The notes below the pieces were generated by a model, which was not told the origin of the DNA, did no database searches, and saw only the letters and a list, made by a program, of their open reading frames with translations. Position numbers and translations under genes: made by a program. DNA of 64,000 nucleotides, from NCBI RefSeq assembly GCF_009914755.1, contig NC_060931.1; one strand, given 5' to 3'. This DNA is from the human T2T-CHM13v2.0 reference genome, Homo sapiens. Below are positions 36,146 through 47,792 of the stretch, piece by piece. Within the stretch, counting starts at the first letter, position 1; every line of letters begins with the position of its first letter.

Positions 36146-37194
36146 AAAAACAGACCCATAGGCCAATGGAAGAGAATAGAGACCCAGAAATAAACCCATA
36201 TATTTACAACCAACTGATTTTTGACAAAGGTGTCAAGAACATACACTGGGGAAGGACACCTTTCTTAATAAATGATGTGCTGAGAAAATTGTATGTCCCT
36301 ATGCAGAATAATGAGCTGGACCTCTATCTCTCACCATGTACACAAATCAACTTAAATTGGATGAAACACTTAAATATAAGAGTTAAAACTGTTATACTAC
36401 TAGAGGAATAAATAGAGAAAATACTCCAAGACATTGGTCTAGGAGAACACTTTGTGGCTAACACTCTGGAAGCACAGGCAAGAAAAACAAAAAATAGACA
36501 AATGGAATTATGTTAAACTAACAAGCTTCTACACAGCAAAGGAAATAATCAATGGAGTGAAGAGACAACCTCTTGAATGGGAGATGGTATTTTTAGTCAT
36601 TTGATAAGGGATTAATATCTAGAAAATACAAAAAACTCAAACAACTCAACAAAAAACAAAACAAACAAATAAAAAACACAATCCCATTAAAAAATGGGCA
36701 AAGGATCTAAATAGATGTTTCTGAAAAAACAATATACATGGGGCCAACAGGTATATGAAAAATGCTCAATATTACTAATCACCAAGGAAATGCAAATCAA
36801 ATTTACAATGAAATATTATCTTATCCCTGTTAGAATGGCTATTATAAAAACAAAAAAACAAAAAAAGATTCTGGCAAGGATGTAGAGAAAAGGGAACTCT
36901 CATACATTCTTCATGGTAATGTAGATTACTACAGTAATTATGGAAAACAATATAGAAATTTCTTTTTTTTTAAATTTTTTTTATTATGCTTTAAGTTTTA
37001 GGGTACATGTGCACATTGTGCATGTTAGTTACATATGTATACATGTGCCATGCTGGTGCGCTGCACCCACTAACTCATCATCTAGCATTAGGTATATCTC
37101 CCAATGCTATCCCTCCCCCCTCCCCCCTCCCCCCACCCCACCACAGTCCCCAGAGTGTGATATTCCCCTTCCTGTGTCCATGTGATCTCATTGT

Positions 37195-40100
37195 TCAATT
37201 CCCACCTATGAGTGAGAATATGCGGTGTTTGGTTTTTTGTTCTTGTGATAGTTTACTCAGAATGATGACTTCCAATTTCATCCATGTCCCTACAAAGGAC
37301 ATGAACCCATCATTTTTTATGGCTGCATAGTATTCCACGGTGTATATGTGTCACATTTTCTTAATCCAGTCTATCATTGTTGGACATTTGGGTTGGTTCC
37401 AAGTCTTTGCTATTGTGAATAATGCCGCAATAAACATATGTGTGCATGTGTCTTTATAGCAGCACGATTTATAGTCCTTTGGGTATATACCCAGTAATGG
37501 GATGGCTGGGTCAAATGGTATTTCTAGTTCTAGATCCCTGAGGAATCGCCACACTGACTTCCACAATGGTTGAACTAGTTTACGGTTCCACCAACAGTGT
37601 AAAAGTGTTCCTATTTCTCCACATCCTCTCCAGCACCTGTTGTTTCCTGACTTTTTAATGATTGCCATTCTAACTGGTGTGAGATGGTATCTCATTGTGG
37701 TTTTGATTTGCATTTCTCTGATGGCCAGTGATGATGAGCGTTTTTTCATGTGTTTTTTGGCTGCATAAATGTCTTCTTTTGAGAAGTGTCTGTTCATGTC
37801 CTTCGCCCACTTTTTGATGGGGTTGTTTGTTTTTTTCTTGTAAATTTGTTTGAGTTCATTGTAGATTCTGGATATTAGCCCTTTCTCAGATGAGTAGGTT
37901 GCGAAAATTTTCTCCCATTTTGTAGGTTGTCTGTTCACTCTGATGGTAGTTTCTTTTGCTGTGCAGAAGCTCTTTAGTTTAATTAGATCCCATTTGTCAA
38001 TTCTGGCTTTTGCTGCCATTGCTTTTGGTGTTTTGGACATGAAGTCCTTGCCCATGCCTATGTCCTGAATGGTAATGCCTAGGTTTTCTTCTAGGGTTTT
38101 TATGGTTTTAGGTCTAACGTTTAAGTCTTTAATCCATCTTGAATTGATTTTTGTATAAGGTGTAAGGAAGGGATCCAGTTTCAGCTTTCTACATATGGCT
38201 AGCCAGTTTTCCCAGCACCATTTATTAAATAGGGAATCCTTTCCCCATTGCTTGTTTTTCTCAGGTTTGTCAAACATCAGATAGTTGTAGATATGCGGCA
38301 TTATTTCTGAGGGCTCTGTTCTGTTCCATTGATCTATATCTCTGTTTTGGTACCAGTACCATGCTGTTTTGGTTACTGTAGCCTTGTAGTATAGTTTGAA
38401 GTCAGGTAGTGTGATGCCTCCAGCTTTGTTCTTTTGGCTTAGGATTGCCTTGGCGGTGTGGGCTCTTTTTTGGTTCCATATGAACTTTAAAGTAGTTTTT
38501 TCCAATTCTGTGAAGAAAGTCATTGGTAGCTTGATGGGGATGGCATTCAATCTGTAAATTGCCTTGGGCAGTATGGCCATTATCACGATTTTGATTCTTC
38601 CTACCCATGAGCATGGAATGTTCTTCCATTTGTTTGTATCCTCTTTTATTTCCTTGAGGAGTGGTTTGTAGTTCTCCTCGAAGAGGTCCTTCACATCCCT
38701 TGTAAGTTGGATTCCTAGGTATTTTATTCTCTTTGAAGCAATTGTAAATGGGAGTTCACTCATGATTTGGCTCTCTGTTTGTCTGTTATTGGTGTATAAG
38801 AATGCTTGTGATTTTTGTACATTGATTTTGTATCTTGAGACTTTGCTGAAGTTGCTTATCAGCTTAAGGAGATTTTGGGCTGAGACAATGGGGTTTTCTA
38901 GATATACAATCATGTCATCTGCAAACAGGGACAATTTGACTTCCTCTTTTCCTAATTGAATACCCTTTATTTCCTTCCCCTGCCTAATTGCCCTGGCCAG
39001 AACTTCCAACACTATGTTGAATAGGAGTGGTGAGAGAGGGCATCCCTGTCTTGTGCCAGTTTTCAAAGGGAATGCTTCCAGTTTTTGCCCATTCAGTATG
39101 ATATTGGCTGTGGGTTTGTCATAGATAGCTCTTATTATTTTGAAATACGTCCCATCAGTACCTAATTTATTGAGAGTTTTTAGCATGAACGGTTGTTGAA
39201 TTTTGTCAAAGGCTTTTTCTGCATCTATTGAGATAATCATGTGGTTTTTGTCTTTGGCTCTGTTTATATGATGGATTACATTTATTGATTTGCATATATT
39301 GAACCAGCCTTGCATCCCAGGGATGAAGCCCACTTGATCATGGTGGATAAGCTTTTTGATGTGCTGCTGGATTCGGTTTGCCAGTATTTTATTGAGGATT
39401 TTTGCATCAATGTTCATCAAGGATATTGGTCTAAAATTCTCTTTTTTTGTTGTGTCTCTGCCCGGCTTTGGTATCAGAATGATGCTGGCCTCATAAAATG
39501 AGTTACAGAGGATTCCCTCTTTTTCTATTGATTGGAATAGTTTCAGAAGGAATGGTACCAGTTCCTCCTTGTACCTCTGGTAGAATTCGGCTGTGAATCC
39601 ATCTGGTCCTGGACTCTTTTTGGTTGGTAAACTATTAATTATTGCCACAATTTCAGCTCCTGTTATTGGTCTATTCAGAGATTCAACTTCTTCCTGGTTT
39701 AGTCTTGGGAGAGTGTATATGTCGAGGAATTTATCCATTTCTTCTAGATTTTCTAGTTTATTTGCGTAGAGGTGTTTGTAGTATTCTCTGATGTTAGTTC
39801 GTATTTCTGAGGGATCGGTGGTGATATCCCCTTTATCATTTTTTATTGCGTCTATTTGATTCTTCTCTCTTTTTTTCTTTATTAGTCTTGCTAGCAGTCT
39901 ATCAATCTTGTTGATCCTTTCAAAAAACCAGCTCCTGGGTTCATTAATTTTTTGAAGGGTTTTTTGTGTCTCTATTTCCTTCAGTTCTGCTCTGATTTTA
40001 GTTATTTCTTGCTTTCTGCTAGCTTTTGAATGTGTTTGCTCTTGCTTTTCTAGTTCTTTTAATTGTGATGTTAGGGTGTCAATTTTGGATCTTTCCTGCT

Positions 40101-47600: not shown

Positions 47601-47792
47601 TCACACTCTGGGGACTGTTGTGGGGTTGGGGGAGGGTGGAGGGATAGCATTGGGAGAGATACCCAATGCTAGATGATGGGTTAGTGGGTGCAGCGCACCA
47701 GCATGGCACATGTATATATATGTAACTAACCTACACATTGTGCACATGTACCCTAAAACTTAAAGTATAATAAAAAAAAAGATATTAGAAAA
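44643..47792 (+). mobile_element. Sense 3' segment of twin-primed L1 element B (L1PA3-like or early L1PA2)
   Basis: ORF2 3' part, 3'UTR, poly(A); TSD AAAAACTAAAAATA at 47793-47806. Confidence 0.95.
45023..47215 (+). pseudogene. L1 ORF2 fragment, 730 aa open (RT domain, no endonuclease)
   Basis: [23 protein letters not shown] and YLGI motifs; premature TGA after KSVW. Confidence 0.9.

What the first reader, a model, noticed from the sequence alone, without database searches (positions are those of the whole stretch)
36966..47792. Potential flip-flop cassette: one L1 promoter/5' half between two interchangeable 3' halves
Seen: about 3.15-kb inverted arms (36966-40119 and 44643-47792) flank a 4.5-kb spacer that holds the only young L1 promoter. 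B's sense arm begins at the base equivalent to 40119, so the arms start at the same L1 coordinate. Inference: a crossover between arms inverts the spacer and joins 5'UTR-ORF1-EN seamlessly to the other 3' half. This would give a full-length L1 on the + strand and swap the directions of sense and antisense promoter activity. The central TSD copies currently match the flanking copies in orientation, so this allele is the ancestral (or evenly flipped) state. The conversion tracts suggest the arms do interact.
Basis: inference. Interest (0 to 1): 0.72.

Follow-up and report, generated by a model that had tools for sequence, protein, structure and literature searches.

The report
Two dead LINE-1 copies, back-to-back
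Two broken jumping-gene (LINE-1) copies sit back to back near TWIST1 and have likely copied patches of sequence onto each other; they could in principle flip the DNA between them, like many such pairs, but no flipped version was found and a flip would likely change little.

Summary
The anatomy is real. Element A is a near-full-length L1 on the minus strand (36966-42980). Element B is a 5'-inverted (twin-primed) L1 (43006-47792). They sit at one TTT|AAA site of an old L1, with their two 13-bp target-site duplications abutting. The 3.15-kb arms are 96% identical. Conversion is well supported: 18 rare alleles are shared (median 1 among 741 control pairs), including one nonsense codon, and they cluster in one tract in the arms and a stronger tract in the 1.64-kb direct repeats. 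There is no footprint of a crossover: 10 older-lineage markers are B-only, none A-only. No inversion is listed here in two T2T catalogues (41 and 65 genomes). A flip would carry the ORF1 and ORF2 stop codons along and move the enhancer by 39 bp. Inverted L1 pairs are a known and abundant recombination substrate. Verdict: an ordinary latent NAHR substrate with local gene conversion, not a switch.

The parts
32236..36945 (+). Old host L1, left part, in fragments interrupted by Alu-like repeats (66-74% identical to A)
   Evidence: runs to A-index 5423
36953..36965 (+). TSD(A), outer copy, 13 bp
36966..42980 (-). Element A: L1 lacking the first ~27 nt including the YY1-motif region; short (~907-nt class) 5'UTR; ORF1 stop at codon 49 (41958); ORF2 stops at codons 156 (40557) and 1224 (37353); L1PA2-like (label recalled)
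36963..40119 (-). Left inverted arm (3' half of A)
37624..38012 (-). Conversion tract in the inverted arms (partner 46749-47137): 1 difference in 389 bp, 4 shared rare alleles
40654..41167 (-). Conversion tract core in the direct repeats (partner 43539-44053): 0 substitutions and one homopolymer indel in 514 bp; shared rare alleles extend 40556-41364
40120..44642 (.). Spacer that an NAHR crossover would invert (4523 bp)
42102..42980 (-). 5'UTR of A (sense and antisense promoter region); overlaps the RefSeq enhancer 42132-42669
   Evidence: hub annotation
42557..42751 (+). Antisense ORF (ORF0-like), 64 codons then stop; 71 codons in 19 of 37 panel copies
42981..43006 (+). Linker: TSD(A) inner copy 42981-42993 plus TSD(B) inner copy 42994-43006; recreates the pre-insertion TTT|AAA site
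43006..44644 (-). Element B, 5'-inverted piece (ORF1 3' part to EN), direct repeat of A 40117-41758
44643..47792 (+). Element B, sense arm from ORF2 codon 302 to poly(A); 1-bp deletion near 44917 and stop at 47213; older lineage than A (L1PA3-like, label recalled)
45103..45525 (+). Catalogued 423-bp polymorphic complex allele inside B's arm (chr7-19327103-COMPLEX-423)
47793..47805 (+). TSD(B), outer copy, 13 bp
47798..48122 (+). Old host L1, right part; resumes at A-index 5449

Best explanation
The locus holds two broken L1 copies back to back, likely inserted one after the other into the same cut site and likely homogenised later in patches by local gene conversion, with no sign that the spacer has ever flipped. 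Steps: (1) shown: an old L1 offered a TTT|AAA site that fits the L1 endonuclease motif on both strands. (2) Shown anatomy, inferred mechanism: B inserted on the + strand by twin priming (inverted 5' piece, 3-nt overlap at the breakpoint, 2-nt shared at the junction, own TSD and poly(A)). (3) Inferred order: B's insertion left the site intact at its 5' junction, and the younger A then inserted there on the minus strand, which is why the two TSDs abut. (4) Shown homogenisation, inferred mechanism: non-crossover conversion acted once or more between the direct repeats and once between the inverted arms, at roughly one sixth of the copies' background divergence. (5) Inferred: the arms remain a low-rate NAHR inversion substrate and the direct repeats a substrate for a 2.9-kb deletion of the promoter; neither product is known to me.
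For: Two complete TSD pairs and two poly(A) tails in a continuous old L1. A and B differ by 4.57% outside tracts (156 of 3412) and 0.7% inside (10 of 1372). 18 alleles shared by A and B at <=10% in 39 genomic L1 copies, against a median of 1 and 95th percentile of 3 among 741 pairs; 12 of 18 lie in tracts covering 29% of the span (p=0.0009; tracts drawn from A/B divergence). The ORF2 codon-156 stop is in A and B and in 0 of 39 panel copies, so it was copied after insertion. Ten non-CpG markers shared with the two older-looking panel copies are in B only, on both sides of the arm tract, and none is in A only; A-private and B-private changes are not segregated along the arms (p=0.24 and 0.58). 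No inversion row near chr7:19.32 Mb in PMC10150506 Table S1 or PMC12350169 Table 37. An unrelated neighbouring pair on chr9 (L027/L044, different flanks, ~29 kb apart) shares a 1551-bp identical run, so neighbour conversion is not special to this locus.
Against: The arms (96%, longest perfect run 226 bp, spacer 4.5 kb) are within the range of L1 pairs that do flank polymorphic inversions (21 of 22 pairs >90%, median 97.2%; median inversion 5.6 kb). Conversion shows that the arms have engaged in recombination. A 423-bp polymorphic allele lies in B's arm, so the locus is not frozen. Two crossovers inside the homogenised tract, or inside the 1.18-kb marker gap 39214-38035, would be invisible; a small A-excess at 38781-38482 (7 vs 4) is not significant. 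The panel was chosen for likeness to A, which may inflate B's apparent age. The 1,019-genome and ape inversion lists could not be read.
Confidence: 0.84

Rival explanations
1. A real but rare L1-L1 NAHR inversion allele exists in some humans or apes, arising once or a few times, with little or no effect on function.
For: 22 human polymorphic inversions are flanked by inverted L1 pairs of like identity and size; 21 L1-mediated human-chimpanzee inversions; proven conversion in the arms.
Against: Absent from catalogues of 41 and 65 genomes and from the chr7 rows of the human-chimpanzee list; 415,581 candidate inverted LINE pairs against tens of known events; no crossover footprint.
Confidence: 0.1
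2. A and B arose in one complex event or from one source element (or B by local duplication of A), which would explain the shared rare alleles without later conversion.
For: Both use the same nick position; 18 shared rare alleles; 6 of them lie outside the two tracts as drawn.
Against: Shared alleles are clustered while the rest differs by 4.6%; lineage markers differ between A and B along the whole length; each has its own TSD and tail; target-primed insertion on both strands at one position needs the top strand both cut and intact (inference); a shared nonsense codon in ORF2 is unlikely in a source element.
Confidence: 0.04
3. One reading: a recurrently toggling cassette whose orientation re-aims the L1 sense and antisense promoters and so alters FERD3L or TWIST1 regulation.
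For: The promoter overlaps a RefSeq enhancer; A lacks the YY1-motif region, a state reported with hypomethylation in embryonal cells for a small set of L1HS copies; after a flip the antisense promoter would point the same way as FERD3L and TWIST1 (both minus strand, 49 and 77 kb away).
Against: No inverted allele known; recurrence is driven by repeat length, 23 of 32 recurrent sites having >=10-kb repeats; the enhancer would move 39 bp; in either state both promoters run into an L1 3' end with a poly(A) signal within a few kb; both products are non-coding; A's 5'UTR has 31 CpG against a panel median of 32, no sign of long protection from methylation; no recombinase or recombination site is involved.
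Confidence: 0.02

Closest known systems
L1-flanked balanced inversions / retrotransposon recombination-mediated inversion (Porubsky et al., bioRxiv 10.1101/2021.12.20.472354; Lee et al., PMC2603318)
   Same: Inverted young L1 pair, about 96% identical, around a spacer of a few kb; a crossover would give chimeric elements.
   Different: No inverted allele or chimeric footprint found here; the spacer is itself almost all L1.
Twin-primed 5'-inverted L1 insertion (26% of 1,271 polymorphic L1s)
   Same: B has an inverted 5' piece, a small overlap at the breakpoint, TSD and poly(A).
   Different: The inverted piece is 1.64 kb, longer than 88% of those cases (<1.5 kb).
LINE-LINE NAHR between direct repeats (Startek et al., PMC4344489)
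   Same: 1.64-kb direct repeats at 96% with a 350-bp perfect run, 2.9 kb apart.
   Different: Shorter than that study's 4-kb criterion; conversion seen, deletion not seen.
Gene conversion between neighbouring L1PA copies (Frith and Khan, PMC5829575, Fig. 4S and 4H text)
   Same: Patchy homogenisation between nearby L1s.
   Different: Here both a direct and an inverted partner segment were converted.
Recurrently toggling inversions flanked by segmental duplications; recombinase-driven invertible promoters of bacteria (Hin/Fim, recalled)
   Same: Inverted homology around a promoter-bearing segment.
   Different: Arms are 3 kb at 96%, not >=10 kb; no recombinase, no dedicated sites, no gene under the promoter.

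Membership tests
Twin-primed 5'-inverted L1 (element B) | 5' piece inverted relative to the 3' piece, pieces contiguous in L1 coordinates with a small overlap or gap | tested here: met
   A-index 1224-2865 inverted, 2863-6007 sense; 3-nt overlap
Twin-primed 5'-inverted L1 (element B) | TSD, poly(A) tail and endonuclease motif | tested here: met
Retrotransposition-competent L1 (A, or the product of a flip) | Intact ORF1 and ORF2 | tested here: not met
   stops at ORF1 codon 49 and ORF2 codon 156 lie in the spacer; further breaks in both arms
L1PA2/L1PA1-type short 5'UTR (element A) | Lacks the 129-bp ZNF93-site segment of L1PA3/4 (PMC5860796 passage) | tested here: met
   879 nt plus ~27 missing, collinear with panel copies of median ~907 nt; exact subfamily label not tested against consensus sequences
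L1-L1 NAHR inversion substrate | Inverted L1 pair at >90-95% identity | tested here: met
   (96.0%)
L1-mediated polymorphic inversion | An inverted allele exists | tested here: not met
   none listed; larger cohorts and ape lists not readable
L1-mediated polymorphic inversion | Chimeric (reciprocally exchanged) arms | tested here: not met
   markers B-only on both sides; limited power in a 1.18-kb gap
Recurrent (toggling) inversion | Long flanking inverted repeats, mostly >=10 kb | tested here: not met
   3.15 kb here; 23 of 32 recurrent sites >=10 kb
Recurrent (toggling) inversion | SNPs shared between both orientations | not testable with these tools
   needs population haplotypes
Non-allelic gene conversion tract | Local identity far above background with shared derived alleles | tested here: met
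Active promoter/enhancer with orientation-dependent effect | Transcripts or target-gene change depending on orientation | not testable with these tools
   only the RefSeq enhancer row is at hand

The most novel reading that the evidence does not exclude
A rare, somatic or ape-specific flipped allele exists and turns the antisense promoter of this YY1-less L1, with its ORF0-like frame and splice donor, towards FERD3L and TWIST1 (same strand, 49 and 77 kb away), making two back-to-back L1s a natural orientation switch in the TWIST1 regulatory domain.
Probability: 0.03. Interest if true: 0.7.

Novelty: new member of a known kind. Interest (0 to 1): 0.2.

Why it matters
As it stands it is a tidy example of repeat insertion at one site and of conversion between neighbouring L1s in both orientations, with a built-in 26-bp orientation marker that makes inversion and deletion rates easy to assay. 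It would matter more only if an inverted or deleted allele were found and tied to TWIST1/FERD3L expression, since TWIST1 dosage affects craniofacial development (own knowledge).

Tried and rejected
Reciprocal exchange between arms: tested with lineage markers, a run test and an A-excess scan; none found. The 226-bp perfect run in the arms (38274-38049) carries no shared rare allele and equals the panel majority, so I do not count it as proven conversion (only 1 of 741 control pairs matches it, a duplicated pair). Donor direction of the tracts: could not be told. Absolute dating: constant rates give 23-46 Myr for the background divergence, too old for these subfamilies by my recollection, so only relative ages are used. 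A panel picked for likeness to B was not obtained, so the relative age of B rests on an A-biased panel. Literature: searches for this locus (TWIST1/FERD3L/LINE-1/enhancer), for head-to-head insertion at a shared TSD and for neighbouring L1 conversion listed no paper on this locus by title or abstract start; that is weak evidence of absence. The ape-genome supplement was unreadable; the 1,019-genome supplement holds no inversion table and was cut inside Table 18; bioRxiv supplements (the 729-inversion list) are closed. These may bear on whether an inverted allele exists.

Full report
Observation. Self-comparison confirms 3.15-kb inverted arms (36963-40119 and 44643-47795, 96.0%) around a 4523-bp spacer, and a 1.64-kb direct repeat (40117-41758 and 43006-44644, 96.4%) that the finding mentions only indirectly. 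The left element A is an L1 on the minus strand whose ORF2 matches the solved LINE-1 ORF2 protein over 1066 residues. The right element B consists of an inverted 5' piece (A-index 1224-2865) and a sense 3' piece (2863-6007), the hallmark of twin priming (mechanism as described in passages of bioRxiv 10.1101/2021.12.20.472354, where 330 of 1,271 polymorphic L1s have this form). Each element has its own 13-bp TSD, each 13-mer occurs exactly twice in the window, all four copies are on the + strand, and the inner copies abut to form a 26-bp linker that recreates the empty TTT|AAA site. The flanks are one old L1 (68-70% identical to A) that breaks off at A-index 5423 and resumes at 5449.

What the elements can do. 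A lacks about 27 nt at its 5' end, including the YY1-motif region that 35 of 39 panel copies keep. It has stops at ORF1 codon 49 and ORF2 codons 156 and 1224; B's arm has a 1-bp deletion near 44917 and a stop at 47213. The first two stops lie in the spacer, so a flip would yield a full-length but still non-coding L1. The RefSeq enhancer (42132-42669) lies almost at the spacer's centre and would move by 39 bp; both 3' ends carry a poly(A) signal, so either promoter meets an L1 3' end in either orientation. The 5'UTR has 31 CpG against a median of 32 in 37 panel copies. An antisense ORF0-like frame is open for 64 codons; the base change that ends it is shared by 5 of 37 panel copies.

History. 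I projected 39 near-full-length genomic L1 copies, the best matches to part of A, onto A. A and B share 18 alleles seen in at most 10% of the panel; among 741 panel pairs the median is 1, and the two highest pairs are a likely duplication (L023/L028, same flank sequence next to the 5' end) and two neighbours on chr9 (L027/L044). Twelve of the 18 fall in two tracts that cover 29% of the span. The direct-repeat core has 0 substitutions in 514 bp (matched by 2 of 741 pairs, the two just named) and the arm core 1 in 389 bp (matched by 2 of 741). Outside the tracts A and B differ at 156 of 3412 sites. The ORF2 codon-156 stop is present in both and in 0 of 39 panel copies, which argues for copying after insertion rather than common descent. 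B carries 92 private alleles against 47 for A and 10 markers shared with the two older-looking panel copies that A lacks; A has none of its own. I infer that B is older and that A inserted later into the site left at B's 5' junction; the panel's bias towards A weakens this step. The labels L1PA2-like and L1PA3-like are recalled from 3'UTR diagnostics, apart from the short-5'UTR test.

Has it flipped? A single crossover would reverse the linker and swap the proximal arms; two crossovers would leave a swapped segment. The linker is unreversed, B-type markers lie on both sides of the arm tract, and private changes show no swapped run (p=0.24 for the scan, 0.58 for runs). B is relatively closer than A to the older copies in both proximal and distal arm parts. 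Power is limited inside the tract and in the marker gap 39214-38035. In catalogues: the chr7 rows of PMC10150506 Table S1 (T2T, 41 genomes; first 30 of 61 chr7 places seen) jump from 6.1 to 34.1 Mb; PMC12350169 supplement (65 genomes, 276 T2T inversions) gives no inversion id at 19.3 Mb while the control at 34.13 Mb is found; the two chr7 rows of the human-chimpanzee list are at 65 and 77 Mb (PMC2603318 supplement); the NA12878 survey shows none among 30 of 32 chr7 places seen (PMC5829575 supplement). These cohorts overlap, and Strand-seq is weak below 10 kb, so the bound is roughly an allele frequency under 2% if the assembly-based caller sees such an event. Against my reading, PMC12350158 Table 18 lists a 423-bp complex allele starting at 45103 in B's arm, in a stretch with 25 A/B differences (top 5% of windows); it is not a spacer inversion and may be a conversion or deletion allele, but I could not read its sequence.

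Comparison. Inverted L1 pairs are an established cause of inversions: 22 of 132 NAHR-type human inversions, median identity 97.2%, median size 5.6 kb, and 21 human-chimpanzee events (parts 1-2 of the text read). Candidate pairs are vastly more numerous (415,581 potential inversion sites; PMC4344489 passages), and recurrence depends mainly on repeat length. Conversion between L1PA copies is described (PMC5829575 passages) and turned up once by chance in my own panel (1551-bp identical run, different flanks). So the locus works like a latent LINE-LINE NAHR substrate; it is not shown to be a polymorphic, let alone toggling, inversion. What is mildly unusual is the head-to-head use of one cut site and conversion in both orientations; searches listed no paper on this locus. 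Other papers were seen as passages only (PMC3961182; bioRxiv 10.1101/2023.01.03.522582, which confirms hypomethylation of a small set of YY1-less L1HS copies but finds YY1-bound copies less methylated overall; PMC5860796, PMC11794170, PMC4859970, PMC13192797).

Verdict. Observation confirmed; interpretation partly supported. Most likely two sequential dead insertions with later non-crossover conversion (0.84); a rare silent inversion allele is possible (0.10); a functional switch is unlikely (0.02-0.03). Interest 0.2.

Noticed in passing
window:45103-45525: A 423-bp polymorphic complex allele is catalogued here in 1,019 long-read genomes; it starts at an A/B difference in one of the most divergent stretches of the arms and may be a segregating conversion.
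   Followed up: partly
window:40117-44644: The direct repeats (350-bp perfect run, offset ~2886 bp) are a better substrate for deleting or duplicating the promoter/enhancer than the arms are for inverting it; no such allele was seen in the tables I could search.
   Followed up: partly
L027 and L044 (G000:C9:81643641-81649923 and 81672584-81678866): Two independent same-strand L1 copies ~29 kb apart with different flanks share a 1551-bp identical run and 24 rare alleles: a long conversion tract between neighbours.
   Followed up: partly
G000:C11:94153781-94244318: 17 hits spaced ~5633 bp apart: a tandem array carrying L1 ORF1 sequence; a chr11 LINE-1 array is discussed in PMC13192797, probably the same.
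   Followed up: partly
window:12231-12597: A third young L1, 3' fragment of ~370 bp on the minus strand with its own 12-bp TSD.
   Followed up: partly
window:48577-48629 and 49235-49287: 53-bp inverted repeats (87%) 605 bp apart, possibly the ends of an old DNA transposon.
   Followed up: no
window:45372-45386: Five B-private substitutions within 15 bp, a mutation cluster inside the catalogued polymorphic stretch.
   Followed up: no
window:29950-30500: GC-rich, C-skewed stretch upstream of the old host L1, possibly its degenerate 5' region.
   Followed up: no
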